Positions 1 to 47,362 of a stretch of DNA of 64,000 nucleotides are shown here, piece by piece. The notes below the pieces were generated by a model. That model ran no database searches, was not told the origin of the DNA, and worked only from the letters and a program-made list of their open reading frames with translations. The stretch is from a bacterium. Its GTDB lineage: Bacteria > Patescibacteriota > Minisyncoccia > Phycocordibacterales > CAIZLB01. Location of the stretch: NCBI GenBank assembly GCA_031411135.1, contig JANOAN010000013.1:152424-216423 (forward strand), given 5' to 3'. Made by a program: the position numbers and the translations under genes. The first letter of the stretch is position 1; each line of letters begins with the position of its first letter.

Positions 1-845
1 CGCGAGTGGTGAATCCAAATAAACCGGCAAAGTAGGCGTATGCTGTCTTTCAAAAAATTCATTAAAATAAAATAGAAGTTCTTGAGTCTTTTCCAAAGAA
101 AAAGCAGGGATCAATAGTGTGCCTTTAGTCCTTTCAATATCAAGCACTACTTGCTTTAGCTTTTCCACACGCTCGTCGCGTGCTTCATGATTCTTGTCCC
201 CGTACACGCTCTCCATTACCATGTAATCCGCATCGTCTATTACTTCAGTATCTCGCAACAACGGACTTGGTGTATTACCCAAATCCCCCGTAAATACAAT
301 TTTGCGCTTTCCATCCACAGCAGGTCCAGTATAAGTCACTTCCCACATAGTCGAACCCAAAACATGCCCTGCATCCTTGCCGTACACAGAAAATCCTGGA
401 AAAACTTCCATATTCTTGTGATACTCCAAAGTCTTCCATATGGAAAGCGCTTTTTTAACATCCTGCTCTTCATACATTGGGTCCTCATGCTTTTTCTCAG
501 CATCATGTAAAGACAACTTCAAAGCATCGGCCAACATATACACCGCCAATTCATAAGTTTCAGGGGTCGAGTAAATCACACCATTAAATCCATCACGAAC
601 TAACTTTGGAATTCGCCCAATGTGGTCCATATGGGCATGGGTGATAAACAGCACTTCAATTGATGCAGGGTCGTAGGTAAACTTACTATGATTAAAATCG
701 TGTGATTCTTGGGTTCCTTGTTCAAGACCACAATCAAAGGCGATTTTTCGCTCTTTTCCGTTAGTGTCTGGTCCGGTTAATATAAAGTTTGCCCCCGTGA
801 CAGATCCTACTCCTCCGCAGAATGATATTGATAGTTTACTCATTG
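1..845 (-). CDS. MBL-fold metallo-hydrolase (partial; C-terminus runs off window edge)
   Basis: Minus-strand translation from ATG at 843-845 gives MSKLSISFCGGVGSVTGANF...ITHAHMDHIG (HxHxDH metallo-beta-lactamase motif). No stop before the window edge. Confidence 0.7.
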
Positions 846-1231
846 ATTTTTTTATTACTAATCTTATCCCATGCTAAGTAAACCACCAAACCCCCTATCA
901 TATCCATCAATATATCCTTCGTAGAGTCCAGCATGTAATCTGGAATGAGCTGTGCCACTTTAAAATAAAATTCAATTATTTCCCAAATAAAGCCAAGTCC
1001 AAAAGAAAAGATCAGGGCGTAAATCCAAGGTATACTGTAATCCTTTCTCCACCAAGAAAAAACGATGTAAGCCACCCAACTAATCAATGCCCCTCCGATA
1101 AAATGCATTGGTAAATCTAGCCATCTATAGATCCAGTAAAGTGAAAGTTCTGCTGCGAAATTATTAAAAATAAACAAAACAATCAGTAAGAAGGTCACAA
1201 TATATAGTTGATCTCTAAGGTTTTTTTGCAT
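836..1231 (-). CDS. small integral membrane protein (hypothetical, 4 predicted TM helices)
   Basis: 131-aa ORF, strongly hydrophobic with aromatic-rich helices. An intrinsic terminator lies about 20 nt upstream of its start. Confidence 0.5.
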   Translation of the reverse strand: MQKNLRDQLYIVTFLLIVLFIFNNFAAELSLYWIYRWLDLPMHFIGGALISWVAYIVFSWWRKDYSIPWIYALIFSFGLGFIWEIIEFYFKVAQLIPDYMLDSTKDILMDMIGGLVVYLAWDKISNKKINE

Positions 1232-1246
1232 AGAGACATTATATCA

Positions 1247-1280
1247 AATTAAAACACCTCGATGGACGTCGAGGGGTTTT
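1247..1280 (-). terminator. intrinsic terminator hairpin immediately upstream of the membrane-protein start (possible attenuator)
   Basis: cctcga-tggacg-tcgagg stem. On the minus strand it is followed by a T-run (tgttttaatttg). Confidence 0.5.
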
Positions 1281-1502
1281 AATTCGGATCACCTAATGTA
1301 ATTGAACCTAGTTTAATCTAGGTGGGTGCTCTGCAGTGAAGGCTCAAAGCCGTCACTGACGTGAGTTCCCTTTTTATAAAATTGTAGATCAATTACAGAT
1401 AAATGATCCTGATATAATTATATTCCTTTCTTTTTTCTTGCAAACTTACCTAAACGTAAATTTTGTTTTATTATCACGCCTGAAGTAAGCCACTTTAAAA
1501 CA

Positions 1503-2081
1503 CTAGTACAAAACACCCTCACGTAGCAACGTATAATCGATGATTTCATTTTCAGAAAACCAGTGTTTGATTTCATCTTCAGCTTCTTTGACTGATCCAG
1601 AGGCGTGAACGAGGTTTCGGATTGGTCGATTGTCGTTATCGGAAAGCTGATATGAATCGTGTACATAATCACCACGAATTGTACCCACTTCTGATTTCAA
1701 AGGTTCAGTTCCTCCTGTAATTTTTCTAACGATTGATACAGCATGTGCGCCTTCCCAGACCATAACGAGGATGGGGCCGGCGGCCATGTAGGATTTTAAT
1801 TTTTTAAGTAGTGCGTTTGTCACCTCTAGTGGATCATTTAATGGAGGAGTAAGTCCTTTATCTAAATAACCTTTGATTGTTTTTTCTCCAGTGATTTTTC
1901 TCCATTCTGGGTCGAGGGTGTAGTGTTTTTCAATCATGTCTTCGGTAGCGACTAGCATTTTGGCTGCGACAATTTTAAGCCCTACCCTTTCGTATCGCTG
2001 GATTATTTCGCCGATTAAGTTTCGTTGAATGCCGTCTGGTTTGATGATGATGAGGGTTCTTTCGTGTTTTGGGTGTTGCAT
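1503..2081 (-). CDS. ndk: nucleoside diphosphate kinase
   Basis: MQHPKHERTLIIIKPDGIQRNLIGEII...NLVHASGS is a typical NDK. Start re-assigned to the internal ATG at 2079-2081 (the track ORF has a 29-aa spurious extension). Confidence 0.9.
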   Translation of the reverse strand: MQHPKHERTLIIIKPDGIQRNLIGEIIQRYERVGLKIVAAKMLVATEDMIEKHYTLDPEWRKITGEKTIKGYLDKGLTPPLNDPLEVTNALLKKLKSYMAAGPILVMVWEGAHAVSIVRKITGGTEPLKSEVGTIRGDYVHDSYQLSDNDNRPIRNLVHASGSVKEAEDEIKHWFSENEIIDYTLLREGVLY

Positions 2082-2155
2082 GGGGGTATTATAACATGAT
2101 TTTATATCTTGACTTTTTAAATCAAGTTTATTAATATTCAAATGTATTTCTACTG

Positions 2156-2199
2156 AAAAGCACTGCATGAGGTTTCGTCCTTATGTGGTGCTTTTCTTA
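2156..2199 (-). terminator. intrinsic terminator downstream of the T4SS-type ATPase gene
   Basis: Imperfect 12-bp stem (gcactgcatgagg / ccttatgtggtgc) followed by a T-run on the minus strand. Confidence 0.45.
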
Positions 2200-2218
2200 T
2201 TTATATTCAAGTTTATCA

Positions 2219-5074
2219 CTACCCAAACGGGTTCACCTTCGGTGCTGGTGCCACCGGATCCTTTCTATACTTCTTCATCACTTCCGTCTCAATCTCCTCT
2301 CTATTTCTTCCAAGCTTCAACCCTGAAAGCTCCTTCAACTTGTCTGCAATATCAGGATCTCCCTTATCAGGCCATGTAAATTCAATATTAAAAGGTCGAA
2401 CAGGCTTACCCCCTGAAAGCATTCTGAGGTAACAATTCATATTGTCGTTGTTCATAATATCGTTCGCCGTAAAAACAGGCTCAAATTGTTTCTGTAAAAA
2501 TTCTGCATCTTCAGAACCTACTCTGAATACCGCCATTGAACCGACGTTTCCAAAGACCGCATCTTTGATTTTTTCATCCAATTGTGCGATGAATTGGTGA
2601 GCGATATTTAAAGAAAGTTTATATTTTCGTGCCTCTGACAAAATGGTTGAAATCGAAGGAGTAGTGATGTTTTGGAACTCGTCGATATATAGGTAGAAAG
2701 GATTCATGTGTTTACCGAATGAATCTACTCGAGAAAGTGCTGCCATTAAAATCTTTCCTACAAGAATAAGACCGATCAAAGACGCGTTGATATCTCCCAA
2801 TCTTCCCTTCGCAAGATTCACAAGGAGAATTTTCTTACTGTCCATAATATCTCTGAAATCAAATGATGATTTTTCTTGCGCGATAATAGGGCGCATAATG
2901 TCGTTTGCTAGGAACACGTCGAATTTGCTGACGATATAAGGCACAATGTTGGCTAGTGATCCTTCCCCACCTGCCTTTTCAGCAATCTCCTTCCAAAATT
3001 GAACAATGATAGGATTTTTACATTTTGAAACCTTCATATCACGGAAGCTTTTCACTGAAAGCACTCGAGAAACTTCCAACAATGTTGATCCACTCTCAGG
3101 ATCTTCAATAACCAACATAGCAGCATTTCTAAAATATTGCTCGAACATTGGACCCATTGATTCTGGATTTGCACCATAGAGCTTTTGGAAAATACTAAAT
3201 AATTCATTTACAACAAAGATTTTTTGATCTGGGAACGAATGGTTGTATTCAAGCATGTTTAATGCCATCGGCCGATCAGTATTTGAAGGGTCAAAATAAA
3301 TCACATCATCATAACGCTCTGGTGGAATATGGGCCAAAATCTCTTGAACATCGGATCCGTGCGGGTCAATAAAGCACACACCATCACCATTTTTAATATC
3401 TTGAATAATCATATTTCGAAGCATTGTCGATTTACCAGTACCTGTCTGTCCAATTGCATAGAAATGTCTGAGGCGATCTTCCGGAGTAATAAAAATATCA
3501 GTCGTCAGATTGCGATGTTTATTTTTACCAAGGAATAGGCCATCCTTTGAAAGCCCGAGTGGAGCAGGCGCTGTCCCTGCCTTTGATTGTTTCAATTGAG
3601 GCGAATTGCTCTGCCCCACTGGGAAATGCACCAATGAAGTTAGTTCTCGAATCGAAGTCGGTAATGCACATTCAGAAACGAAATCACGGTAGGTAAAGTG
3701 ATGTAACGTATCGATCAAATCCGATTTCTTCTGACGCTTGAATTCCAAAGTGTTCCCGAGCGAATTTTGGAACTGATTAAAAGCTGATTCAATATCGGCC
3801 AAGATCGCTTCCGCTCTCATGCCATTTTCAGCACTCGCAACAATGCGAATATTTGATTCAATAACAGGGGTCGCTAATTTTAATTTGATTTGTTCGGATG
3901 TAATTTGATCCACTACCTGTTCCTTTTCCTTATTTTTTTCCTTTTCCTCCTGCTTTTCAGAACTAAATATTTCCTTGGCAAAATCTTCTCCGCTTTCTTT
4001 GACTGCTTTTGTGAATTCACCCCATAATGTATGCCTAATATCTAATGCCTTGTTAACCTTAGTACCCTTTTGAATTTCATCCAAAGCTTCCTTATAGAGC
4101 TTTACATAGTAATCCCCCATTGGATTAATTACGATTTGAACCGCAGCGCCCTCCCCGTCTTTTTTGATCTTTGAAAGTGTATTCAAGAGCACGTTCAATG
4201 GGTCGTAATCAAACTGATCATAAGTTTTTATAGGATAAATCGGGTTTTTAGATTGCTTGGCAATACTGGCAACTGACACTCCATCAGTATTAAAAACATT
4301 GTAGTCATCTTTTTTCTCGGCAATTTTGGCATTCGGAAAAATCGAAAGAATCTGTTTTTCAAAAAGCGCGGTTTTATCATCTGGAATTGAAACATAAAAA
4401 ATAAATTCTTCACTACCCTCAGAAACCGCCAGCTCAATCGTAAAGTGATTATTACTGTGCCCCGCTTCATTTGAAAGATCTGCGGTTGAAAGCATACCTG
4501 CATAAAATTGCTCCATCGATGAAAGCATTTCTTTCAGTTGTTTTTCTTTGTCTTCTTTTTTAGTTTCAGGAAGAGCCACTTCGTACAAAGTATGTCGCAA
4601 AGTCCTGTCAAGCGGCGTTTTTTCCTTTAAACCCTTTACGTCAAAACCTTTTTTGATGTACTCAACAATGAAACGGTGGAAGTCGTCATCAATATGAGGA
4701 TTCCCGAGGTGACGGATAATATCAATCGTGTTTTTGATACCTTTTTCATTAAGCAGAGAAAGCAGCTCTTCAATTTTTTTATCATGAGTTTCAGGGGTTA
4801 GTTCAAGTACAATTTCTTTTTTCTCAGTATCTGGAGTTTTGAAAGATTCATGAAGGACCCTGCTTGCATCATGTTTGGTGTAGTCTTTAATTTCTTCTTC
4901 AATGATTTTCTCACGCTCAAACTTCTCCCCTCTTTCGGTTGCAGTATTTTCACGCTCCGCGACCACTTTGCGTAAATAATTTAACTCCTCCTCGGCAGAA
5001 GTAAATTGTTTATTGTCATATGAAAAATGTTCTTGTTCTTTCATTTTTAGGCCTTTTAAACTATTATACTCCAT
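2219..5074 (-). CDS. large P-loop ATPase of the type IV secretion / conjugation family (VirD4/TraD- or VirB4-like), with long charged N-terminal region
   Basis: Walker A GQTGTGKST; CFIDPHGSD...YFDPSN; YLYIDEFQN; ARKYKLSLNIAHQ. These are characteristic of TraG/VirD4/VirB4-type DNA/protein translocation ATPases. 951 aa. Confidence 0.55.
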   Translation of the reverse strand: MEYNSLKGLKMKEQEHFSYDNKQFTSAEEELNYLRKVVAERENTATERGEKFEREKIIEEEIKDYTKHDASRVLHESFKTPDTEKKEIVLELTPETHDKKIEELLSLLNEKGIKNTIDIIRHLGNPHIDDDFHRFIVEYIKKGFDVKGLKEKTPLDRTLRHTLYEVALPETKKEDKEKQLKEMLSSMEQFYAGMLSTADLSNEAGHSNNHFTIELAVSEGSEEFIFYVSIPDDKTALFEKQILSIFPNAKIAEKKDDYNVFNTDGVSVASIAKQSKNPIYPIKTYDQFDYDPLNVLLNTLSKIKKDGEGAAVQIVINPMGDYYVKLYKEALDEIQKGTKVNKALDIRHTLWGEFTKAVKESGEDFAKEIFSSEKQEEKEKNKEKEQVVDQITSEQIKLKLATPVIESNIRIVASAENGMRAEAILADIESAFNQFQNSLGNTLEFKRQKKSDLIDTLHHFTYRDFVSECALPTSIRELTSLVHFPVGQSNSPQLKQSKAGTAPAPLGLSKDGLFLGKNKHRNLTTDIFITPEDRLRHFYAIGQTGTGKSTMLRNMIIQDIKNGDGVCFIDPHGSDVQEILAHIPPERYDDVIYFDPSNTDRPMALNMLEYNHSFPDQKIFVVNELFSIFQKLYGANPESMGPMFEQYFRNAAMLVIEDPESGSTLLEVSRVLSVKSFRDMKVSKCKNPIIVQFWKEIAEKAGGEGSLANIVPYIVSKFDVFLANDIMRPIIAQEKSSFDFRDIMDSKKILLVNLAKGRLGDINASLIGLILVGKILMAALSRVDSFGKHMNPFYLYIDEFQNITTPSISTILSEARKYKLSLNIAHQFIAQLDEKIKDAVFGNVGSMAVFRVGSEDAEFLQKQFEPVFTANDIMNNDNMNCYLRMLSGGKPVRPFNIEFTWPDKGDPDIADKLKELSGLKLGRNREEIETEVMKKYRKDPVAPAPKVNPFG

Positions 5075-5088
5075 TATTTTACGAAGGG

Positions 5089-5340
5089 CTAAGGAAAAGT
5101 GTAGTAAACGCCCTTTTTAACACCATGTTTGATTATTAGTTTTCTTTTAACTAATAATCCCAGCAATCTGACAATAAATTGACGCGATACATTAAAATGA
5201 TTAGAAATTTCTCGAGTTGTTACTATAAAACCATCTGGTAACTCACAAAAGCTTTTAAAGCTTTTGTCATTTTGAAGATTTCTATGAATTACATACATTT
5301 TCTTAATATGTTCATAAATACTATATTCAGATAAAAGCAT
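5089..5340 (-). CDS. small HTH-type DNA-binding protein (hypothetical regulator)
   Basis: 83-aa ORF. The segment REISNHFNVSRQFIVRLLGLLVKRKLIIKH looks like a winged-helix recognition helix. It sits directly downstream of the TTGWCAA palindrome locus. Confidence 0.4.
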   Translation of the reverse strand: MLLSEYSIYEHIKKMYVIHRNLQNDKSFKSFCELPDGFIVTTREISNHFNVSRQFIVRLLGLLVKRKLIIKHGVKKGVYYTFP

Positions 5341-5456
5341 AGATTTGGTGGATTATTTATTAAATTATCAAAATTATAGACAACATTGATTAAGCATAAA
5401 TAAAAATTTATATAAATTTATTTTAATTAAAAAACCAAGGAACATAGCAAGATTTC

Positions 5457-5551
5457 ACCCATTGTCAAAAAGTTGTCAAAGAAATACGGGTGCATTTACA
5501 TTTTTTGACAACTGTTTGACAACTTATTGACAACTTATTGACAATGGGCGA
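5457..5551. promoter_or_regulatory. palindromic motif locus 1: tcaCCCATTGTCAA ... TTGACAATGGGCGAC with internal TTGACAA repeats
   Basis: Inverted repeat with -35-like TTGACA cores facing outward. A near-identical arm pair recurs at 25534-25613. Confidence 0.45.
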
Positions 5552-5552
5552 C

Positions 5553-5693
5553 TCAGGACACATCACTTTCAACCATCAATTCATCCATAAAAACTGCAGG
5601 TAGATTTGTTTTCTCTGCCAGTTTTCTTGTAAAAGTAGATTTACCCGAAGCACTCACCCCAACTACCACAATTTTATTTCCTAAATTTTTCAT
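5553..5693 (-). pseudogene. truncated N-terminal fragment of a P-loop NMP/adenylate-kinase-like gene
   Basis: Minus-strand ATG at 5691-5693 gives MKNLGNKIVVVGVSASGKSTFTRKLAEKTNLPAVFMDELMVESDVS followed by TGA. That is a Walker-A kinase N-terminus of only 46 aa, and no continuation exists in any frame. Confidence 0.4.
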
Positions 5694-5695
5694 CT

Positions 5696-6478
5696 CTATA
5701 AAGTAAGTATCTCCACCCCATCCTCCGTAATCGCCACGGTATGTTCAAAATGACAACTCCTTTTTCCATCAACTGTTTTATAAGTAAATCCATCATTAGA
5801 AACCATAATCGCACCCTTACCTTCATTCAAAATCGGCTCAATGGCAATAACCATTCCTGCCTTCAAAGCGACCCCTTGCCCCTTTCTACCATAATTTGGA
5901 ATAAATGGATCTTCGTGAACATGCTTACCCACCCCGTGTCCTCCTAAATGTTCTGCAAATTCAAAAACTTTCCCTTGGCTCGCCTTTTTCATAGCTTGTT
6001 CAATAGCAAAACCAATATCCCCCGTTTTGACCCCCGGCTTGCAAACACTAATCCCTGCATCTAATGCAATTTTACAAGCTGATAACATTACCTTTGCTGT
6101 TGAATCGGCCTTGTCGATTCCACCAACAATCACAGTCACCGCTGAATCTAAAACCATCTTTTTATAAATAATTCCCATATCGATCGAAACCATATCTCCA
6201 TCTCGCAAAATTCTTCCTCCTGGAATTCCATGTACAATTTCCTCATTTACCGAAACACAAAGACATGCCGGAAAAGGAAACGGTGCCCCTGCTGGTTGAT
6301 AATTCAAAAACGCTGGGATCACGTCATTCTTTTTACACAATTCTGCGGCTTTGTCATTTAAATCTGCCGCAGTTACACCTGCAACTGTTGCTTTTTCAAG
6401 ATCACGAAGAATATCAGCCAGGATTTTCCCGCCTTTTCGCATAAGTTCTATTTCTTTTTCGGTCTTGATGTAAATCAT
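5696..6478 (-). CDS. map: type I methionine aminopeptidase
   Basis: 260 aa with MAP fold motifs (HGIPG, metal-ligand D/H/E pattern). Conserved position after adk. Confidence 0.9.
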   Translation of the reverse strand: MIYIKTEKEIELMRKGGKILADILRDLEKATVAGVTAADLNDKAAELCKKNDVIPAFLNYQPAGAPFPFPACLCVSVNEEIVHGIPGGRILRDGDMVSIDMGIIYKKMVLDSAVTVIVGGIDKADSTAKVMLSACKIALDAGISVCKPGVKTGDIGFAIEQAMKKASQGKVFEFAEHLGGHGVGKHVHEDPFIPNYGRKGQGVALKAGMVIAIEPILNEGKGAIMVSNDGFTYKTVDGKRSCHFEHTVAITEDGVEILTL

Positions 6479-6491
6479 TACCTATACCCTA

Positions 6492-7103
6492 CTATAAATA
6501 CTTCACGAGTCCAACCGCCTTCATAATGTCCTTCTTTACATCTTCAATTGGCTGTTCTCCGTTGATTCTACAGTAAGCAACTCTGTCGCTCTTACGATAG
6601 TGCTCCAAAACTGGTTCTACGTCTGTTTCATACCATTTCAAGCGTCTTCCTATGGCCTCTATAGCCTTATCATCGGCTCTATGACGCGCTTTAAGGCGTT
6701 CTTCCGCCCATTCCCGACTTACGTCCATGTGTACAATTAAGGGCTTGGTAAAGCTGTAAAAACCGAAGGAGGTGTCGATTACCCCCGCCTCAATAATCGA
6801 ACGAGGTGTTCCGTCCAATACCACATGCTGGCCTTTTTTTAACTGAGTTACAAACAAGTGAGTCCACATCCAAACTGCCAAGAAATCTGGCTGGCGACGT
6901 CCGTCCGTAGCATATTCTTTTGCAAGCTCATTCGTATAGCCAGACTGCTTTGTAAATTCTCGAAAAGCATCCCCTGTTTGCAAGTAAAACACTCCCGCTT
7001 CTTTAAAATCTGGGTGCTCTAGAAACAGTTTGTGAATCGCTTCTGATTGGGTACTTTTTCCGCAGCCGGATCGTCCGATGAAGATGATGGTTTGTTGGGG
7101 CAT
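6492..7103 (-). CDS. adk: adenylate kinase family protein
   Basis: P-loop IGRSGCGKST and NMP-binding YLQTGDAFREF (compare ISTGDMLR). Sits at the secY-adk-map position. Confidence 0.7.
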   Translation of the reverse strand: MPQQTIIFIGRSGCGKSTQSEAIHKLFLEHPDFKEAGVFYLQTGDAFREFTKQSGYTNELAKEYATDGRRQPDFLAVWMWTHLFVTQLKKGQHVVLDGTPRSIIEAGVIDTSFGFYSFTKPLIVHMDVSREWAEERLKARHRADDKAIEAIGRRLKWYETDVEPVLEHYRKSDRVAYCRINGEQPIEDVKKDIMKAVGLVKYL

Positions 7104-7108
7104 TTGGG

Positions 7109-7996
7109 TTAGTTGTTTTCAGTTTCTTTACTATCCAGTTTAGGTTTAGAATCTTCTTTTATTGTACCCAAGCCCGATACAAATTTGGTAAATTTTTCCC
7201 AGAAAGAAGGTAACTTCTCGCTTCCCTTTTGGATGTTTATACTTTCTGGTTTTTTCATTTGACTTGCAATCTTTTGCTTAATTTCTTCTGCCCTCTTCTC
7301 AGCCACTTTTTTTTCATTCTCAACCTTTGCCAAATCTTTAAACCACTTGTCTATTTCCCGCCTGCTTGAATCGTCTGTTTGTATATCTCGCATCTCATGC
7401 TTGTTCGCGTCTTGTGCCTCTTGAATGTATGTCTTTTTCTTATTTTCAAATTTAGCGCGCTGTTCCTGACGCAGATGTTTTTCAGGACGATGAATATTTA
7501 CCTGTTCCTTCTTGGGAATCTTCTCCTTTTTTTCTAAGACTACCTTTGGTGCTTCAGGTACTTTCTCTACTGGTGCTGAGCGAGGAACAACAACTTCCGG
7601 TTCTTTAATTTCTGCAACTACAGGTTCTGGTACTTCTTCTGCAGGCTGATGCTGAGCCATAATTTCAGGAAGATCTTTTAAAGTTGCTCCCGCGTTAATA
7701 TAACCTTCTCCTTTTTCGTTTTCTCCCATTCCTAAAGCCTCTACTGCTGCCTTCATCTCTTCTGCTGTTACAGGAGTTTCCTTTACAGTCTCAACTGCCC
7801 CTGCAGACTCTTCTTTATCTATGGATTCTTCTGCTACTGCCTCAGCGACACTCATTGGCTCTGCATCCGAAGCTCGAAATTGCTTCTTAGATTTCTTCTT
7901 TTTACTTTCGTTAAATGGTTTTTCTAATTCTGGGACTTCAAATTTCATTTTCATATACACCAATTCTAAACAACCACCTCCACTTTGTCCATCCAC
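7109..7996 (-). CDS. Lys/Glu-rich low-complexity hypothetical protein
   Basis: 295-aa ORF between secY and adk, highly charged (KE repeats). The true start may be MKMKFEV at about 7954. Confidence 0.45.
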   Translation of the reverse strand: MDGQSGGGCLELVYMKMKFEVPELEKPFNESKKKKSKKQFRASDAEPMSVAEAVAEESIDKEESAGAVETVKETPVTAEEMKAAVEALGMGENEKGEGYINAGATLKDLPEIMAQHQPAEEVPEPVVAEIKEPEVVVPRSAPVEKVPEAPKVVLEKKEKIPKKEQVNIHRPEKHLRQEQRAKFENKKKTYIQEAQDANKHEMRDIQTDDSSRREIDKWFKDLAKVENEKKVAEKRAEEIKQKIASQMKKPESINIQKGSEKLPSFWEKFTKFVSGLGTIKEDSKPKLDSKETENN

Positions 7997-8000
7997 ACAA

Positions 8001-8049: not shown

Positions 8050-9321
8050 TTAATACTCCTCCATCGACAACTGCGCGTTCACTTTCTTGATTGTATCCAT
8101 CACAACCGATACTACGATTAGAAGGGCTGTACCTCCAACAGTTAGAGCCTGAATACCTGTAAGGGCGTGGACGATTACCGGAAGAACCGCGATCAAACCT
8201 AGAAATAGTGCTCCTACAAGAGTGATTCTTGTAACCACATGTGACAAGTACTGCATAGTTGACTCACCTGGGCGAATACCTGAAATAAAAGCGCCATTCT
8301 TTTGTAAGTTTTCAGAAATACTCTTTGGATCGAAAGTTACTGATGTGTAGAAGAACGTGAACAGAACTACAAGTACGAAGTACGCTCCTGCGTAGAACCA
8401 TGTGTTCTGCATCAAAGCAGAGAGATTAGCTGACCAAGTGTTTATAAAGGCATACTTAGTATTAGTTAGGAGAGAAAGAATCATCTGAGGGAACAACAAG
8501 ATTGAAATAGCAAAGATGATTGGAATAACTCCAGCTTGGTTAAGTCGAAGTGGTAGATATGTTGGAACCCCTGCCCCACCGCCATGCATTTGTTTTGTAT
8601 AAGTAACCGGAATTGGACGTTCTGCTTCTGTAACAAGAACCACGAAGTAGATAACCAGTAATCCTAATACGGCTGCCACTATGATTGTTGGGATCTGTGA
8701 AGCATCCAAAATAGAGCTTTGAACCTGCGTGATCATCTTAGGTAACGAGGCTACGATACCGGCAAAAATAATTGTTGAGATACCGTTTCCGATACCGAAT
8801 TCTGTTGCTAACTCTCCAAGCCACATAACCAAAACTGAACCTGCTACTATAATAGCCACGTTAGTTAGCATCTGGAACGGAGGAATATTCGCAGGGATTA
8901 CATCACTTCTTTGGAGAAGGATGATGTAACTAAAGGCCTGAATAATAGCCAAAGGAATAGTAAGCATTCGAGAATACTGCGTGAATTTCTTTCGTCCTTC
9001 TGCTCCACCTTCCTGTTGCATTTCCTTTAGTTTTGGGAAAATCATAGTCATCAACTGGATGATGATCGTTGATGTTATGTAAGGCCCAACTCCGAGCATA
9101 ATAATAGAAAGACTAGAAAGTCCACTTCCCGAGAAGAGACTAATAAGACTTAGGAATTGGTTACTATTGAAAAAGGCTGCCAATTTATCAGTTGGAATAC
9201 CTGGAACTGGGACATGAGAAAGGAATCGGTATACAACTAGAACACCGATAACAAATAGAATTCTATTCCTTAGGTTTTTGTTTAGAAATACCCTTTTAAG
9301 TTTATCTATGAATGTTGACAT
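8050..9321 (-). CDS. secY: preprotein translocase subunit SecY
   Basis: 423 aa, 10-TM SecY pattern, and conserved position after rplO. Confidence 0.95.
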   Translation of the reverse strand: MSTFIDKLKRVFLNKNLRNRILFVIGVLVVYRFLSHVPVPGIPTDKLAAFFNSNQFLSLISLFSGSGLSSLSIIMLGVGPYITSTIIIQLMTMIFPKLKEMQQEGGAEGRKKFTQYSRMLTIPLAIIQAFSYIILLQRSDVIPANIPPFQMLTNVAIIVAGSVLVMWLGELATEFGIGNGISTIIFAGIVASLPKMITQVQSSILDASQIPTIIVAAVLGLLVIYFVVLVTEAERPIPVTYTKQMHGGGAGVPTYLPLRLNQAGVIPIIFAISILLFPQMILSLLTNTKYAFINTWSANLSALMQNTWFYAGAYFVLVVLFTFFYTSVTFDPKSISENLQKNGAFISGIRPGESTMQYLSHVVTRITLVGALFLGLIAVLPVIVHALTGIQALTVGGTALLIVVSVVMDTIKKVNAQLSMEEY

Positions 9322-25398: not shown

Positions 25399-25533
25399 TT
25401 GTGTTTGTAAAAATAAAATGCTTCGAAAAGCACTTAGAGGTAAGATACTATATTAGTGGGGGAAGTGCAAGGATTTTAGGAAGTTTTTTAAAGTGGAGTC
25501 GGAATAGAAGAATTTTGTCACCCATTGACAATT

Positions 25534-25613
25534 AATTCTTTAAATTAAGGATTAATTGATGTTTAAAGCGCTATAAAATTAAGCAGAGCGGGTAATTGTC
25601 AATGGGCGACAAA
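25534..25613. promoter_or_regulatory. palindromic motif locus 2: tcaCCCATTGACAAT ... ATTGTCAATGGGCGAC, upstream of rpsL and divergent ORF
   Basis: 12-nt arms with about a 66-nt spacer. Same arm sequence as locus 1. Arms contain outward-facing TTGACA -35-like hexamers. Confidence 0.5.
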
Positions 25614-29739: not shown

Positions 29740-31071
29740 TTAAACAATAGGTTTCACAGCGGAAACATCCTTTTTATCGGGGGATGTTTTTGTTTTGGTT
29801 ACACAGAAATAAATTACAATCATTATAAAGTAGCAAATCAAAGTTTGCTTCCAAGTCCACTTGGGAAATTCAATCGCCGCAAATGGAAGGTTTGCGCATA
29901 TGTGAACAATCCACAATTCATAAGAAAGCAATGCAAAAGAAATAAAGGAAAATATTTCTGCGATAAAACTTGAAACAAAACTGATTAACATTGATGCCAC
30001 CACAAAAAACATAGTATAGGGTATGAAAGGAAGGACCACTATATTAGTGAAGAGAGAGATGAGCGAGACTATTCCAGAGAAGTGCATAATAAGCGGGGTA
30101 ATAGCAATCTGAGTTCCGAGTGTCGCGGAAATCGTTTCTTTTACCCCAAATTTTTCTGGTAAAAAAGACAGACGTTTTGAAATTTTATCGGACAAAACTA
30201 TGAGACCAAGAGTGGCCGTAAAACTCATCTGAAAAGAAGGATCGTAAAACAAAAGCATCGGATTAAAGGCCATCATGATAAGCCCTGCAATAAAAAGACC
30301 TTTAAACGGATCATACACCAGGTTCATGGTCCTTCCATAAATCGCAATCGCGTTCATAAATAGCGACCGCATGACTGATGCTCCACCACCCACCATCAAA
30401 CAAAAACAGGTCATGAAAAACATTCCGATGACGAAGCGGACGGTGGGAGGTAAAAATCCAAGAAGCGCCATCACTACAACCGCAATTATACTGACATTGA
30501 AACCAGACAATACAACAATGTGAATCAGACCGACTCTCTTAAACTCGTTTTGAAGTTCTGCATCGAGTGACCCCTTCCCGGTCAGAATTAGTCCGGCACC
30601 TAAAAAAGATTGAGGTTGGGGTAGAAGTGAATTTATTCTTTGGATGCAAATATTTTTTATACTGATTAAGGCGAGTTTAAATTTTGAAGGGGTGGAGTTA
30701 TCTATAAATTCAATCTTTGGATTTTTTATTTGATAAAAGATCTTACGAACTCGCATATAATCTCCGTAGGATGATTTTGGATCCCCATCGGAAATATTTG
30801 TAAGTTTTCCTTCAATTTTTAAGTTGTCGCCGTATTTAAGCGGAGTAAAAAAATACTTGGTGCTAACTTGAATTAAATTACCCTCGTGTGTTTTTGCAAT
30901 AAATCTTTGTGAGTCTTTTGATGAATCTGGTTCTTCGATAATCTGTACCGATAATGTAACTTTTTGATTAGAAAGTTTTCTTAAAACTCCATCATCCTTT
31001 GGCCACATAAAGAATCGAATTGTAATAATTACAAACAATATAAAAACGACAATCCATTTGGATTTATTCAC
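29740..31071 (-). CDS. comEC: ComEC/Rec2 N-terminal part (DUF4131-like + competence channel domain)
   Basis: Multi-TM competence domain (GLIHIVVLSGFNVSII... pattern). Separated from the MBL part by the antisense SOD gene. Confidence 0.7.
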   Translation of the reverse strand: MNKSKWIVVFILFVIITIRFFMWPKDDGVLRKLSNQKVTLSVQIIEEPDSSKDSQRFIAKTHEGNLIQVSTKYFFTPLKYGDNLKIEGKLTNISDGDPKSSYGDYMRVRKIFYQIKNPKIEFIDNSTPSKFKLALISIKNICIQRINSLLPQPQSFLGAGLILTGKGSLDAELQNEFKRVGLIHIVVLSGFNVSIIAVVVMALLGFLPPTVRFVIGMFFMTCFCLMVGGGASVMRSLFMNAIAIYGRTMNLVYDPFKGLFIAGLIMMAFNPMLLFYDPSFQMSFTATLGLIVLSDKISKRLSFLPEKFGVKETISATLGTQIAITPLIMHFSGIVSLISLFTNIVVLPFIPYTMFFVVASMLISFVSSFIAEIFSFISFALLSYELWIVHICANLPFAAIEFPKWTWKQTLICYFIMIVIYFCVTKTKTSPDKKDVSAVKPIV

Positions 31072-31125: not shown

Positions 31126-32058
31126 TTACTTCAAATTCTGATACCCCACAACTATTGCCTCGGCAATAAATAGTTCCAAGTGAGAGTAATTATCATGCTC
31201 TTGGGCTTGTTCAAGGTAAGTGTAGTATAGAATCTTTTTTTCTTTTTCAATAATAGAAGGAGAGATTTTGTGCGACAAAAGCATTGTATTAAGTAGTAGT
31301 CTCCTCACTCTACCGTTCCCATCGGAAAAAGGATGAATCTTTTCAAACCTCGCGTGTATTTCAGAGGATTTTTTTATGAAATCCCTGTTATTTAATTTTT
31401 TCGCTTCATTAATTTCATTAACTAAGATCTCCATTAATTCTGGTACTCTAATATAATTAGCTGTAACAACATTTGTTCCAGCAATTCTCACACCGTGATT
31501 TCTGTAATTTCCGGCATTATCCATAATGCCATTCATGAGTATTTCGTGAAGCCTTTTGATATACCTCCCATCTAGATCTTTTTTTGAAGCGAGAAAGTCA
31601 AACATGTACTGAATAGCCACTTTGTGGTTCTTGGCTTCTATTTGCTCAACAAGGGTTTTATTTTTAAGATTCGTATTCTCAAAAATTACCATAGCAGTTT
31701 CTCTTTCAGTTAAAGTACTACCCTCTATAGCATCAGAATGGTAAGTTGACCTGACGCAAAAATGTTCATATAAATCTTTTCTTTGTAAAACGAGATTCAA
31801 TGGATCACTTATTAGTTGTGAAAAGTTTAATATTTGATCGTAAACTTTTTCAAGTTCGAGACTGGAAACTTCACCTTTTCCTGTATATTTATCATAAAGA
31901 TCATTGATTTTATTCAAAGCTTTTGGTCGAGGTGAGGATTTACCGAGAAACCATGCATTAAACGCAGGAAAACTCACACCAAACATGCTAGCAAGCTCGG
32001 TCTGCGTAAAATTCAATTTTTCCTGAATTTTTCTTAATTTTTCCTGAGTTTCGGTCAT
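31126..32058 (-). CDS. Fic family protein with N-terminal HTH
   Basis: HPFSDGNGRVRR (HPFx[DE]GNGR Fic motif). N-terminal XRE-like HTH. Confidence 0.85.
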   Translation of the reverse strand: MTETQEKLRKIQEKLNFTQTELASMFGVSFPAFNAWFLGKSSPRPKALNKINDLYDKYTGKGEVSSLELEKVYDQILNFSQLISDPLNLVLQRKDLYEHFCVRSTYHSDAIEGSTLTERETAMVIFENTNLKNKTLVEQIEAKNHKVAIQYMFDFLASKKDLDGRYIKRLHEILMNGIMDNAGNYRNHGVRIAGTNVVTANYIRVPELMEILVNEINEAKKLNNRDFIKKSSEIHARFEKIHPFSDGNGRVRRLLLNTMLLSHKISPSIIEKEKKILYYTYLEQAQEHDNYSHLELFIAEAIVVGYQNLK

Positions 32059-32115
32059 GGCAACATACTATCAAACTTTATAAAGTTATACAAATATAGC
32101 CAAACTTTATAAAGT

Positions 32116-32838
32116 TTATTTACTAAATTCCCTTACAATCTCTTCCTCATCAACTTTTGAAATTGATTTTTTAAACAAAGCTTTCTTTCCGTGTACTCTT
32201 TTTTTACATTCATCCCAAGTTTGATCAATATTAATTTTTCCTTGAACCATGCTGACATATGAGAATGCTGGTGATTTATTCTTTGATGATTTTTTAGTTG
32301 GAACTCCAACTTTAATATTTAAAACCACATCCTTGTTTGGATACTCGGCTAAAAACCCACTGTACAAATCTGGCTTCTTTCCATCCGCATAAGCAGTCGC
32401 AATTTCATCGCACCTCTCGTTTCCAAAAATTTCGCTGTGCCCTTTCAAAAGAGTCCATTTGATTTCTTTTCCTTTTAATACAGAATCCATTTCTTGCCAC
32501 AAATCTATGTTTTTAACTTCTTCTTTTGTTGAACTGATCCAGTTTTTAGCTTTCCATCCGTGAAGCCATTTTGTAGCACCGTTTAACACATATGCGGAAT
32601 CTAATCTAACTTCATATTTTGTAACAGTACCTTTAGCATAGTAGTCATCAAAGAATTTTAAACCTTCAATTACAGCCTTTAATTCCATTCGGTTGTTGGT
32701 TGTTAAGTCCTCTCGGCCCCCTCTTTCGTCAATTCGCATTTCGTCAGCGTCGTTTGGGTATATACAGATAAAGCCGTAGCCACCAGGGCCAGGGTTTCCG
32801 CGAGATGATCCGTCGGTGTAGATGGTGATGGGTTTCAT
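32116..32838 (-). CDS. rnhA: ribonuclease HI with C-terminal RNA/DNA hybrid-binding domain (HBD)
   Basis: TDGSSRGNPGPGGYG...TNNRMELKA RNase H core. C-terminal FSYVSMVQGK...TWDECKKRVHG...KKF resembles the hybrid-binding (caulimovirus viroplasmin-like) domain. Starts 8 nt after the RT stop. Confidence 0.8.
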   Translation of the reverse strand: MKPITIYTDGSSRGNPGPGGYGFICIYPNDADEMRIDERGGREDLTTNNRMELKAVIEGLKFFDDYYAKGTVTKYEVRLDSAYVLNGATKWLHGWKAKNWISSTKEEVKNIDLWQEMDSVLKGKEIKWTLLKGHSEIFGNERCDEIATAYADGKKPDLYSGFLAEYPNKDVVLNIKVGVPTKKSSKNKSPAFSYVSMVQGKINIDQTWDECKKRVHGKKALFKKSISKVDEEEIVREFSK

Positions 32839-32846
32839 GAGGGGTA

Positions 32847-47357: not shown

Positions 47358-47362
47358 AATTA

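What the first reader, a model, noticed from the sequence alone, without database searches (positions are those of the whole stretch)
2219..5700. spc-operon tail ends abruptly after map at a kinase-gene remnant, a TTGACAA-repeat region and a T4SS-type ATPase module
Downstream of secY-adk-map one expects infA-rpmJ-rpsM-rpsK-rpsD-rpoA-rplQ. Here map is instead followed by a 46-aa Walker-A kinase N-terminal fragment ending at TGA (5553..5693). Next comes an AT-rich region full of TTGACAA repeats, then a small HTH protein and a 951-aa VirD4/VirB4-like ATPase with its own terminator, then ndk. This looks like an insertion or rearrangement that displaced the alpha operon and left a gene remnant. The ATPase may belong to the T4SS-like host-interaction machinery often seen in CPR.
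Basis: partly seen in the sequence, partly recalled or inferred. Interest (0 to 1): 0.5.

Follow-up and report, generated by a model that had tools for sequence, protein, structure and literature searches.

The report
Conserved operon tail, dead kinase, palindromic repeat
The gene order after map is the normal, inherited layout of this group of tiny bacteria (Parcubacteria/Paceibacteria), not a fresh insertion; what is special to this genome is a dead kinase stub cut off at a copy of a small palindromic repeat that always sits in front of a little DNA-binding-protein gene.

Summary
The features are all present as described. The explanation given for them is only partly right.

- **Gene order.** The order map -> large ATPase -> ndk -> DUF2238 -> beta-CASP recurs in every relative I could fetch, down to 66% ATPase identity. 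The break after map is therefore ancestral to this lineage. The ATPase is a vertically inherited core gene, not a recent island.
- **ATPase.** It is 941 aa (start at 5044) and soluble. It combines an N-terminal DUF8128 domain with a VirD4/TraG-type P-loop domain. No T4SS genes lie elsewhere in the 64 kb. Orphan T4CP homologues like this are already reported as common in Patescibacteria.
- **Kinase stub.** The 46-aa ORF matches residues 1-37/41 of 165-172-aa P-loop kinases. It is absent from all relatives and ends about 12 nt before a repeat element, so it is a real pseudogene stub.
- **TTGACAA region.** It is one copy of a dispersed palindromic repeat of about 100 bp (termini GTCGCCCATTGWCAATTA). 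A second copy lies upstream of rpsL at 25516-25611, and others occur at unrelated intergenic sites in relatives.
- **HTH gene.** A palindrome of this family precedes the small winged-helix gene in all four diverged alleles found. It is probably that protein's operator.

Overall this is ordinary, apart from a modestly new repeat/regulator pair.

The parts
5696..6478 (-). map (methionine aminopeptidase), the last gene of the spc-type cluster in this lineage
   Evidence: Pfam Peptidase_M24 at 1.7e-43. It lies directly upstream of the ATPase locus in most relatives fetched.
5553..5693 (-). 5' remnant (46 codons) of a ~170-aa P-loop nucleotide/nucleoside-type kinase; a pseudogene
   Evidence: It carries the Walker A motif GVSASGKST and has sub-threshold AAA_33/AAA_17/AAA_18 hits. 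It is 73% identical to residues 1-37 of a 165-aa kinase in L020. Full-length relatives of 168-173 aa match only their residues 1-41. The rest of the gene is absent from the window. The ORF is absent from all relatives' loci.
5453..5560 (.). Palindromic repeat element, copy A. Outer arms are GAGTCGCCCATTGTCAA (5538-5554) and TTGACAATGGGTGA (5455-5468, read on the minus strand). There are six TTGWCAA boxes.
   Evidence: Inverted repeat of 25 nt, 92% complementary. nhmmer with a profile of 11 copies gives E 7.9e-15. As RNA it folds at -41.5 kcal/mol, z = -6.8.
5505..5544 (.). 11-bp tandem array (TTGACAACTTA, 3.6 copies) inside copy A; a local expansion from the 2 boxes seen in the closest relative
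   Evidence: TRF score 66, 93% matches. L006, L007 and L009 have 2+2 boxes where the window has 4+2.
5341..5452 (-). AT-rich spacer (GC about 0.26-0.27 in the 400-nt windows covering it) with promoter-like hexamers for the HTH gene. The right arm of the repeat supplies a TTGACA -35-like box.
   Evidence: Composition profile. Promoter-like site 5468..5441: TTGACA, 16 nt, TATGTT with an upstream TG. This is a consensus match only.
5089..5340 (-). 83-aa winged-helix DNA-binding protein, specific to this lineage
   Evidence: Sub-threshold MarR_2, Rrf2 and SdpR hits on residues 35-81. The AF2 topology is H-H-H-beta-hairpin, at low confidence (pLDDT 57). Close homologues are 72-89% identical (P0121-P0123). 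Three other alleles are 41-46% identical at the same locus.
2219..5044 (-). 941-aa soluble ATPase: N-terminal DUF8128 region (about residues 1-480) plus a VirD4/TraG/VirB4/HerA-type P-loop motor (about 500-900). Walker A is GQTGTGKST (532-540) and Walker B is YLYIDEF.
2155..2196 (.). 18-bp-stem hairpin in a ~115-bp insert between the ATPase stop and ndk
   Evidence: Terminator-like scan, with the T-run on the + strand only. Relative L006 has only 9 nt between the two genes.
1503..2081 (-). ndk; the likely start is the ATG giving MQHPKHERTL, not the upstream ATG of the mechanical ORF
   Evidence: Pfam NDK at 1.3e-38. Comparison with L006 shows a 1-nt shift that puts the upstream ATG out of frame.
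25516..25611 (.). Palindromic repeat element, copy B, about 118 nt upstream of the rpsL start
   Evidence: Arms are TTGTCGCCCATTGACAATTA and TAATTGTCAATGGGTGACAA. nhmmer E 8.2e-16. It is present at the same place in several relatives and has partly decayed in one.

Best explanation
This stretch is the normal tail of the ribosomal spc-type cluster in one Parcubacteria/Paceibacteria lineage. It is not a recent insertion.

**Shown**
- In this lineage the cluster ends at map. A conserved block follows: a soluble DUF8128 + VirD4/TraG-type P-loop ATPase, then ndk, DUF2238 and a beta-CASP RNase.
- The ATPase carries a conserved TGnTATAAT-type -10 box about 20-30 nt upstream of its start in all relatives.
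- In the sub-clade with at least 84% ATPase identity, a small winged-helix (wHTH) gene sat between map and the ATPase. It survives as at least four diverged alleles. It has been deleted down to a ~75-nt 3' stub in two lineages.
- Every surviving allele is preceded, 45-115 nt upstream, by a palindrome built on CGCCC-ATTGWCAAT (CGCCC-GTTTACAAT in one allele).
- That palindrome belongs to a dispersed family of 80-125-bp inverted-repeat elements. Copies lie at unrelated intergenic sites in the same genomes: upstream of rpsL, rplS and trmD, downstream of an hpf-like gene, and between convergent genes.
- The 46-aa ORF is the first quarter of a ~170-aa kinase gene. It starts 2 nt after map's stop and loses homology about 12 nt before the outer end of the repeat.
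- The stub, the expansion of the 11-bp box from 2 to 4 copies, and the 115-bp hairpin insert after the ATPase are private to the window's lineage.

**Inferred**
- (a) The wHTH protein binds as a dimer to the palindromic ATTGWCAAT boxes and represses its own promoter, whose -35-like TTGACA lies inside the right arm. It probably also limits read-through into the ATPase. I put this at about 0.45.
- (b) The repeat spread by copy-and-paste like a MITE/REP element, and its outer boundary is a hot spot for indels. This would explain why the slot between map and the repeat holds a different thing in each lineage: a kinase stub, a HicB-like gene, an unknown 116-aa ORF, or 47 nt of spacer. About 0.6.
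- (c) The ATPase is a hexameric nucleic-acid or substrate translocase exapted from the conjugation-type coupling-protein lineage for a housekeeping role, not part of a T4SS. About 0.5; the substrate is unknown.
For: **Synteny.** map-ATPase-ndk(-DUF2238-beta-CASP) is found in L001 (94%), L180 (90%), L166 (86%), L002 (85%), L168 (84%), L003 (71%), L004 (70%), L005 (66%) and L006. L179 (81%) shows map-ATPase only, because its contig ends before ndk. blastn shows window and L006 collinear at 83-88% from the right repeat arm through the HTH, ATPase and ndk.

**ATPase conservation.** 58 homologues at 61-94% identity have a nearly invariant motor domain.

**HTH history.**
- The four alleles are in window/L006, L001/L013, L166 and L180.
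- Alignment A4 shows that L168 and L002 keep only the 3' ~75 nt of the HTH gene, including the TGATATAAT box.

**Repeat family.**
- There are 2 full copies in the window.
- There are 3 copies in MAG ELA571 and 2 in MAG GFS_12865, and more in metagenomes.
- Contexts are given.
- Mean pairwise identity of the arms is 77-84%. Spacers of copies at non-orthologous loci in different genomes reach 82% (L006 vs L014) and 78% (L016 vs L017).

**Kinase stub.**

**No T4SS partners.**. No TM anchor.

**Literature.** 5,713 T4CP homologues were found in 2,918 Patescibacteria genomes. Only 148 were near virB4, and exaptation was 'not ruled out' (PMC12102498).
Against: - No binding, transcription or transposition data exist. 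The operator role rests on position only (4 of 4 alleles).
- L002's genome lacks the HTH at this locus yet still has a slightly degenerate repeat copy. The repeats therefore do not strictly need an HTH encoded here.
- No target-site duplication and no cognate transposase were found, so 'MITE' is an analogy.
- At the rpsL site the arms are not visibly better conserved than the surrounding intergenic DNA.
- The origin of the kinase stub is unresolved. No relative has a full kinase after map.
- The location of infA-rpsM-rpsK-rpoA in this lineage was not determined.
- The ATPase model is only moderately confident (pLDDT 69.6, pTM 0.44). The fold cannot separate VirB4, T4CP and HerA.
Confidence: 0.75

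Rival explanations
1. One reading: an HTH + T4SS-type ATPase module inserted after map, displaced the alpha operon (infA...rplQ) and cut a kinase gene. The ATPase would serve a T4SS-like host-interaction machine.
For: - The alpha-operon genes tested (all but rpoA) are absent from the window.
- T4CP-type Pfam domains pass threshold.
- There is a kinase stub next to a repeat.
- GC drops to about 0.26 in the spacer.
Against: - map-ATPase-ndk is conserved down to 66% ATPase identity, including on 696-790-kb contigs.
- The ATPase is diverged to the same degree as its flanking core genes (83-88% nt against L006).
- GC of the ATPase (0.36-0.42) equals that of its surroundings.
- There is no integrase, relaxase, VirB4 or other T4SS gene in the 64 kb.
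- The protein has no membrane anchor.
Confidence: 0.05
2. The palindromic elements are plain MITE/REP-type selfish or structural repeats with no relation to the HTH protein. Their presence in front of the HTH gene would reflect an insertion hot spot, or a role as an RNA hairpin ending spc-operon transcripts.
For: - Copies lie in intergenic DNA whatever the gene orientation, including between convergent genes.
- Spacers are near-identical at non-orthologous loci.
- The predicted hairpin is strong.
- A compact relative of the palindrome sits like a bidirectional terminator after an hpf-like gene in L026.
- A repeat persists in a genome that lost the HTH at this locus.
Against: - Four diverged HTH alleles each carry a palindrome of the family 45-115 nt upstream, in three different sub-types including a compact 19+7+19 form. 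Where the HTH was deleted, the palindrome is gone too.
- Each arm contains a perfect protein-type palindrome, ATTGWCAAT.
- Copy A has no U-tract after the hairpin on the coding strand.
Confidence: 0.35
3. Iterons + AT-rich stretch + small HTH form a plasmid/ICE-type replication or partition module (ori + Rep/ParB-like protein). It could be a remnant of an integrated element or a secondary chromosomal origin.
For: The layout is 11-bp-phased direct repeats, then an adjacent AT-rich stretch of about 110 bp, then a DNA-binding protein gene.
Against: - The protein is 83 aa with a single winged helix and has no Rep, ParB or DnaA-type hit.
- The repeat number is not conserved (2+2 in the nearest relative).
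- The same palindrome family is dispersed at many chromosomal intergenic sites.
- GC skew stays negative across 1-8000, with no switch at 5.4 kb.
- No full element occurs in 2.9 million viral contigs.
Confidence: 0.04
4. The 46-aa ORF is a genuine small gene (a P-loop mini-protein) co-translated with map, not a remnant.
For: It has an intact ATG 2 nt after map's stop, an intact Walker A motif and no internal stop.
Against: - It is absent from all relatives examined, including those 83-88% identical in flanking DNA.
- It is homologous only to the first 37-41 residues of 165-173-aa kinases.
- It lacks every element after the P-loop helix.
- The reading frame leaves the family's M-W-x-P-G-W motif after residue 41 and runs into the repeat element.
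Confidence: 0.04

Closest known systems
Type IV coupling proteins (VirD4 / TrwB / TraD / TraG; Pfam TrwB_AAD_bind, TraG-D_C, T4SS-DNA_transf)
   Same: - The C-terminal ~430 aa is a P-loop motor with Walker A and B motifs.
- It passes the Pfam thresholds for TrwB_AAD_bind and TraG-D_C.
- The best NCBIfam coverage is to a VirD4-like family (residues 512-847).
- A helical insertion (about residues 606-735) lies between Walker A and B in the model.
   Different: - There is no N-terminal transmembrane anchor.
- A ~480-aa DUF8128 N-terminal region takes its place.
- All NCBIfam scores are far below the curated cutoffs (41-42 bits against 250-366).
- No relaxase or T4SS genes are nearby.
- It holds a fixed housekeeping position between map and ndk.
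VirB4 / TrwK ATPases of T4SS
   Different: TM-score is only about 0.2 and 315 residues align. There is no Pfam or NCBIfam VirB4 membership (best hit VirB4_plasma at 24 bits against a cutoff of 590). It is not next to VirB3/VirB6/VirB8-type genes. Patescibacterial VirB4 is reported near dnaA (PMC12102498), not here.
Orphan T4CP homologues of Patescibacteria (Microb Genom 2025, PMC12102498)
   Same: This is a VirD4-type homologue encoded far from any virB4 in a Patescibacteria genome. That paper counted 5,713 such homologues, of which only 148 were near virB4, and raised possible exaptation.
   Different: In the passages I read, the paper does not describe the DUF8128 fusion, the lack of a membrane anchor or the fixed map-ATPase-ndk synteny. 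I did not verify that this exact family is among their hits.
HerA / FtsK-type translocases and phage homologues (phrog_5156; Bacillus phage G gp156, phage D6E)
   Different: Pfam DUF87 is below threshold (19.5 against 23.2). There is no NurA, Sir2 or other HerA partner adjacent. The phage family has no assigned function.
MITE / REP / Correia-type small palindromic intergenic repeats
   Same: The elements are 80-125 bp and non-coding. They have conserved ~19-27-nt terminal inverted repeats and variable AT-rich centres. Several dispersed intergenic copies occur per genome, in sub-families with near-identical copies at unrelated loci. Promoter-like hexamers lie in the arms.
   Different: No target-site duplication and no matching transposase or RAYT were identified. 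One sub-type is constantly coupled to a wHTH gene. The family is so far seen only in a narrow clade (2 of 185,579 species representatives by exact pattern).
Autoregulated MarR/ArsR/SdpR-type winged-helix repressors with palindromic operators
   Same: This is a small wHTH protein with weak MarR_2, Rrf2, FeoC and SdpR profile hits. A palindromic site overlaps a -35-like box upstream of its own gene.
   Different: At 77-95 aa it is shorter than typical MarR proteins (about 140 aa) and lacks their dimerisation helices. All hits are below the curated cutoffs except FeoC in one allele (25.9 against 21). Binding is untested.

Membership tests
Type IV coupling protein (VirD4/TrwB/TraD/TraG) | P-loop NBD of the FtsK/HerA superfamily recognised by T4CP profiles | tested here: met
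   Pfam TrwB_AAD_bind scores 30.2 bits (cutoff 20.5) and TraG-D_C scores 29.4 (cutoff 22). Walker A and B are invariant across 58 homologues.
Type IV coupling protein (VirD4/TrwB/TraD/TraG) | N-terminal transmembrane anchor that docks the hexamer at the inner membrane | tested here: not met
   In the Kyte-Doolittle 19-residue scan, the only segment at or above 1.6 is 749-774, inside the NTPase core. Residues 1-500 are hydrophilic.
Type IV coupling protein (VirD4/TrwB/TraD/TraG) | Genetic linkage to a relaxase and/or T4SS channel genes (VirB4, VirB6, ...) | tested here: not met
   None was found among 20 large ORFs of the window, nor in up to ~8 kb of flanks in the relatives' loci.
Type IV coupling protein (VirD4/TrwB/TraD/TraG) | Meets curated equivalog/subfamily cutoffs (NCBIfam TraD, VirD4-like, TrbC) | tested here: not met
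   The best scores are 42.4 bits against 366 (SXT_TraD) and 41 against 250 (conju_CD1115).
VirB4 ATPase | VirB4-specific sequence profile and adjacency to VirB3/VirB8-type partners | tested here: not met
   The only profile hit is VirB4_plasma at 24.1 bits against a cutoff of 590. No partners were found. VirB4 is the top structural hit, but with TM 0.2.
HerA-type helicase/translocase | DUF87/HerA profile above threshold and a nuclease or effector partner (NurA, Sir2, DUF4297) | tested here: not met
   Pfam DUF87 scores 19.5 against 23.2. NCBIfam HerA scores 15.3 against 970. The neighbours are the HTH gene (map in relatives lacking it) and ndk.
MITE / REP-like dispersed repeat | Short non-coding element with terminal inverted repeats, in several dispersed copies | tested here: met
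   There are two copies in the window, 3 in MAG ELA571 and 2 in MAG GFS_12865. The arms average 77-84% pairwise identity, and spacers at unrelated loci reach 82%.
MITE / REP-like dispersed repeat | Target-site duplication and a cognate autonomous element or transposase | tested here: inconclusive
   No consistent direct repeat flanks the copies. No clean empty site was available: L177 differs over the whole upstream region. The transposase was not searched genome-wide.
Iteron-type replication origin | Conserved iteron number, an adjacent Rep initiator, and a strand-skew switch or autonomous context | tested here: not met
   Box number varies (4+2 against 2+2). The protein is 83 aa with no Rep domain. 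There is no GC-skew switch.
Intrinsic terminator | GC-rich hairpin followed by a U-tract on the transcribed strand | tested here: not met
   Copy A was not called by the terminator scan. The sequence after its hairpin on the minus strand is AATCTTGCTATG. The 2155-2196 hairpin has its T-run on the opposite strand only.
Pseudogene (truncated P-loop kinase) | Homology confined to part of a longer conserved protein, with no conservation of the short form in relatives | tested here: met
   Residues 1-37/41 match proteins of 165-173 aa. The ORF is absent from all relatives' loci.

The most novel reading that the evidence does not exclude
The small winged-helix protein and its dispersed ATTGWCAAT palindromes could form a lineage-specific regulon. 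It would tie the promoters or ends of translation-related operons (rpsL/str, rpsP-trmD-rplS, hpf, the spc tail) to expression of a soluble, exapted coupling-protein-type ATPase. That would be a new global regulatory circuit in Paceibacteria, built by amplification of a mobile operator.
Probability: 0.12. Interest if true: 0.6.

Novelty: new member of a known kind. Interest (0 to 1): 0.3.

Why it matters
- **Annotation.** The result removes a false lead. The break of the spc/alpha super-operon after map and the T4CP-like ATPase are lineage traits, not signs of a mobile island. Scans of CPR genomes should not flag them as insertions.
- **The ATPase.** It gives a concrete, conserved and easily recognised example of the 'orphan T4CP' class noted in Patescibacteria. 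This one is soluble, fused to DUF8128, very strongly conserved, and locked between map and ndk. That makes it a good candidate for asking what these exapted motors do.
- **The repeat.** It documents a previously undescribed palindromic repeat family, with a candidate binding protein, in organisms for which almost no regulatory elements are known.
- **Scale.** None of this is individually surprising for a specialist.

Tried and rejected
- **Rest of the kinase gene.** I searched the window and all fetched loci with a full-length homologue and found nothing. A simple split by insertion, with both halves present, is therefore excluded within 64 kb.
- **HTH and kinase-stub homologues.** The word-indexed protein search gave only 3 and 1 hits. 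An exhaustive HMMER search was needed for the stub.
- **Repeat arm in viral contigs.** There were 119 single hits, at about the chance level I estimated (no shuffle control was run), and no full element by nhmmer. A phage origin has no support.
- **Palindrome pattern in other organisms.** Several hits in the genome and metagenome scans were unrelated hairpins in other taxa (GC 0.5-0.58, Bacteroidia, Nitrospirales). I set these aside as coincidental.
- **Rfam.** The window matches only 4 tRNAs. No known RNA family lies at either repeat copy.
- **Integron attC idea.** This would read the region as variable small ORFs each followed by an imperfect palindrome. I rejected it because there is no intI-type recombinase, the arms do not fit the RYYYAAC/GTTRRRY cores, and copies sit upstream of core genes such as rpsL.
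- **Misassembly at a repeat.** Rejected, because both sides of the junction (map, and HTH-ATPase) are syntenic with relatives. A chimeric join would not place a kinase start 2 nt after map.
- **Fold search with the HTH model.** Not run, because the model confidence (pLDDT 57) is too low to give meaningful matches.
- **Literature.** Searches for DUF8128 and for MITEs in Patescibacteria found nothing relevant.

Full report
**1. What is in the sequence**

On the minus strand the window carries a long ribosomal-protein cluster ending in rplO and secY (8050-9321). It continues with:
- a 295-aa low-complexity ORF (7109-7996);
- adk (6492-7103);
- map (5696-6478);
- a 46-codon ORF with a Walker A motif (5553-5693);
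- about 100 bp rich in TTGACAA/TTGTCAA;
- about 110 bp of AT-rich spacer;
- an 83-aa HTH ORF (5089-5340);
- a large ATPase ORF (2219-5074);
- ndk, then a DUF2238-like membrane protein.

tblastn with E. coli InfA, RpmJ, RpsM, RpsK, RpsD and RplQ finds none of them anywhere in the 64 kb; RpoA was not used as a query.

The heptamer occurs 6 times in 83 bp, against 8 times in the remaining ~64 kb. Part of it forms an 11-bp tandem array. The outermost boxes belong to a 25-nt inverted repeat.

- All homologues begin at the second ATG (5044, MKEQEHF), so the ATPase is 941 aa.
- The 'terminator' after it is a long hairpin (2155-2196) whose T-run is on the wrong strand.

**2. The ATPase is not an insertion**

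The protein has more than 1,900 homologues. The 120 best are 62-94% identical over the full length, are labelled Parcubacteria/Paceibacteria/Patescibacteria, and many sit on contigs of 0.3-0.8 Mb.

I fetched the loci of ten of them, with ATPase identity of 94, 90, 86, 85, 84, 81, 71, 70 and 66% plus the L006 genome.
- All but one show (adk-)map immediately before the ATPase locus. The exception is L180, whose short contig has a different ORF upstream.
- All but one show ndk, DUF2238, a beta-CASP RNase, a 2-hydroxyacid dehydrogenase and an LDcluster4 protein after it, as far as the contigs reach. The exception is L179 (81%), whose contig ends just after the ATPase, so it shows map-ATPase only.
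- In L004 the adk-map-ATPase-ndk block stays together although it is no longer next to secY.

At the nucleotide level, window and L006 are collinear at 83-88% from the right arm of the repeat through the HTH, ATPase and ndk. That is the same divergence as in the ribosomal genes.

The end of the spc cluster at map and the presence of the ATPase are therefore ancestral to a broad clade. I could not determine where the alpha-operon genes lie in this lineage.

**3. What the ATPase is**

*Sequence profiles.*
- Pfam scores TrwB_AAD_bind (30.2 bits against 20.5) and TraG-D_C (29.4 against 22) above threshold. DUF87/HerA falls below.
- The precomputed annotation of all homologues adds PF26449 (DUF8128) for the N-terminal half.
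- NCBIfam's curated conjugation families are hit only far below their cutoffs. The best coverage is a VirD4-like family over residues 512-847.
- PDB sequence searches reach only the TrwB P-loop.

*Structure.* An AlphaFold model built from 58 homologues has moderate confidence (pLDDT 69.6).
- Foldseek ranks R388 TrwK/VirB4 first, then Cagbeta, HerA and DotL.
- The fold places the protein in the VirB4/VirD4/HerA branch but cannot separate the three. Sequence profiles favour the coupling-protein lineage.

*Missing T4CP features.*
- There is no N-terminal hydrophobic segment, so the membrane anchor that defines working T4CPs is absent.
- None of 20 other large ORFs in the window is a T4SS component. 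The window does carry type IV pilus PilB/PilC and ComEC.

*Other relatives.* Distant full-length relatives exist in Firmicute phages (phrog_5156 at 8.9e-82; Bacillus phage G gp156 at about 22% identity), with no assigned function.

*Literature.* A 2025 survey found 5,713 VirD4-type homologues in 2,918 Patescibacteria genomes, only 148 of them near virB4. It noted that the homologue in Ca. S. epibionticum is not essential for epibiotic growth and that exaptation cannot be ruled out (PMC12102498).

The window's gene fits that known class. Its very strong conservation (mean column identity 57%, nearly invariant motor) and fixed housekeeping neighbourhood argue for a cell-intrinsic role. I infer a hexameric translocase. 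The substrate is unknown.

**4. The kinase stub**

- The 46-aa ORF starts 2 nt after map's stop.
- Its first 37 residues are 73% identical to a 165-aa kinase reconstructed from L020.
- An exhaustive HMMER search finds 168-173-aa proteins that match only over their residues 1-41.
- After residue 41 the family's M-W-x-P-G-W motif is replaced by VESDVS-stop. About 12 nt later the repeat element begins.
- The remainder of the gene is not in the window or in any fetched locus.

No relative has anything similar at this place:
- L006, L007 and L009 have 47 nt of unrelated spacer.
- L001 and L013 have a HicB-like ORF on the other strand.
- L180 has an unknown 116-aa ORF.
- L166 has plain spacer.
- L002, L003, L004, L005, L168 and L179 go almost straight from map to the ATPase.

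The ORF is a lineage-private pseudogene remnant. How a kinase 5' end came to lie exactly after map is unresolved.

**5. The TTGACAA region is a copy of a dispersed palindromic repeat**

*Second copy and arm sequence.* The outer arm GAGTCGCCCATTGTCAA recurs, with up to 3 mismatches, at two more places in the window against 0.14 expected. One of them, at 25516-25611, is a full second element about 118 nt upstream of the rpsL start. Each arm contains the perfect palindrome ATTGWCAAT.

*Copies elsewhere.* A strict two-arm pattern scanned over one genome per species found:
- three copies on different contigs of one MAG (ELA571);
- two copies in another MAG (GFS_12865);
- unrelated chance hairpins in other taxa.

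The metagenome scan added further copies. An nhmmer profile of 11 copies recovers all of them at E values of 1e-13 to 1e-17. It also reveals a tandem second copy upstream of rplS.

*Contexts.* Copies lie upstream of rpsL, rplS and trmD, downstream of an hpf-like gene, and between convergent genes.

*Sub-families.* There are two:
- one with inner TTGTCAA boxes at 11-bp phase (window A, L006, L014, L026, L031);
- one with TTCTTCAT-type centres (window B, L002, L016, L017, L019, L180).

Spacers of copies at non-orthologous loci in different genomes are up to 82% identical. That means copy-and-paste spread, not independent evolution.

*History of individual copies.*
- The rpsL copy is orthologously present in several relatives. 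One has lost its left arm by deletion between short direct repeats. One lacks the copy altogether.
- Copy A in the window has expanded its left arm from 2 to 4 boxes.

*What was not found.* There is no target-site duplication, no transposase, no Rfam family and no viral copy. The closest known kind is a MITE/REP/Correia-type repeat. Membership in the strict transposon-derived sense is unproven.

**6. The HTH gene and its link to the repeat**

The 83-aa protein gives only sub-threshold MarR_2, Rrf2 and SdpR hits. Its low-confidence model has a winged-helix topology.

Its homologues occur only at this locus in everything I fetched. They fall into four alleles that are 41-46% identical to one another's groups, although the adjacent ATPases are 86-94% identical: window/L006, L001/L013, L166 and L180.

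Two lineages (L168/L169 and L002) retain only the last ~75 nt of the gene, including the TGATATAAT box that serves as the ATPase's -10. The gene was therefore ancestral to the clade with at least 84% ATPase identity and has been lost repeatedly.

Every surviving allele has a palindrome of the family 45-115 nt upstream of its start:
- the boxed sub-type in window/L006;
- a long sub-type in L001;
- the TTCTTCAT sub-type in L180;
- a compact 19-7-19 variant with GTTTACAAT boxes in L166.

Where the gene is deleted, the palindrome is gone too. In the window, the right arm provides a TTGACA hexamer 16 nt from a TG-TATGTT -10-like box reading toward the HTH gene.

The simplest reading is that the palindrome is the operator of this small repressor, and that the other genomic copies are additional sites or amplified relics. 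This is inference from position only. Two observations keep the plain-repeat rival alive:
- a genome that lost the HTH at this locus still has a slightly degenerate copy elsewhere;
- copies lie between convergent genes.

**7. Rejected alternatives**

- *Iteron origin or Rep module.* This does not fit the 83-aa protein, the variable box number, the dispersed copies or the unbroken GC skew.
- *Integron-cassette reading.* There is no integrase and the core sites do not match.
- *Misassembly.* Both sides of the junction are syntenic with relatives.

**8. Verdict**

- **Right:** the kinase remnant is real, and the ATPase belongs to the coupling-protein lineage at domain level.
- **Wrong or unsupported:** the 'insertion that displaced the alpha operon' is contradicted by deep synteny. 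The T4SS host-interaction role has no support here.
- **Modestly new:** a palindromic repeat family coupled to a small winged-helix gene, and the precise description of a soluble DUF8128-T4CP-type ATPase locked between map and ndk. Both are new members of known kinds.

Interest is about 0.3.

Noticed in passing
window 25516-25611: A second full copy of the palindromic repeat lies about 118 nt upstream of the rpsL start, between rpsL and a divergent 102-aa ORF with no family hit. It is orthologously present in several relatives. One relative has lost the left arm by deletion between GCTTAATTTTAT direct repeats.
   Followed up: yes
window 7109-7996 (-): A 295-aa E/K/P-rich low-complexity ORF with no Pfam or NCBIfam hit is wedged between secY and adk. 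The same slot holds ORFs of 614, 408, 298, 240, 150 or 77 aa in relatives, or none at all. It is a hypervariable gene inside an otherwise rigid operon.
   Followed up: partly
window 31126-33830 (-): This is a three-gene cluster. It comprises a reverse transcriptase (RVT_1; PADLOC RT at 184 bits, UG17-like at 105 bits), an RNase H-domain protein, and an HTH_3 + Fic protein (PADLOC PDC-S04/SoFic-like). It looks like a retron/DRT-type defence or abortive-infection module next to ComEC.
   Followed up: partly
window 2094-2214: A ~115-bp insert between the ATPase stop and ndk is absent from relative L006, where the gap is 9 nt. It holds an 18-bp-stem hairpin flanked by 31-nt imperfect direct repeats (2128-2158 and 2197-2227, 77% identical). 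The same ATPase|ndk junction holds an MFS transporter, a 964-aa cadherin-like protein, a 466-aa ORF or a 203-aa ORF in other relatives.
   Followed up: partly
window 46146-49108 (-) and 29740-31071 (-): The window carries type IV pilus genes (PilB-type T2SSE ATPase, PilC-type T2SSF) and ComEC. This is the DNA-uptake/pilus machinery typical of CPR. It is unrelated to the T4CP-like ATPase by position.
   Followed up: no
L005 7870-7990: In a 66%-identity relative, the map-ATPase spacer carries a different repeat: a 28-bp unit (TAACTGATAATCGTTATCCGATACTTGT) in about 2.5 tandem copies. This intergenic slot seems to attract repeats in several lineages.
   Followed up: no
L026 118-154: A compact palindrome, CCACCCGTTTGCAATT/AATTGTAAACGGGTGG, has T-rich tails on both strands. 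It lies just downstream of an hpf-like gene and right next to a full repeat element. It resembles the L166 operator variant and looks like a bidirectional terminator.
   Followed up: no
L020 217-714: The closest homologue of the kinase stub is a 165-codon gene interrupted by a single in-frame TAG at codon 63. This could be a pseudogene, a sequencing error or recoding.
   Followed up: no
L001 7162-7407 (-); L014 172-558, L016 5265-5681, L017 1841-2224: Small toxin-antitoxin-like genes lie close to repeat copies in relatives. They include a HicB-like gene in the map|repeat slot of L001 and ORFs starting MKDFDxWN that look MazF/PemK-like from memory. Only the HicB hit was profile-tested (sub-threshold, 21.8 bits against a cutoff of 27).
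   Followed up: no
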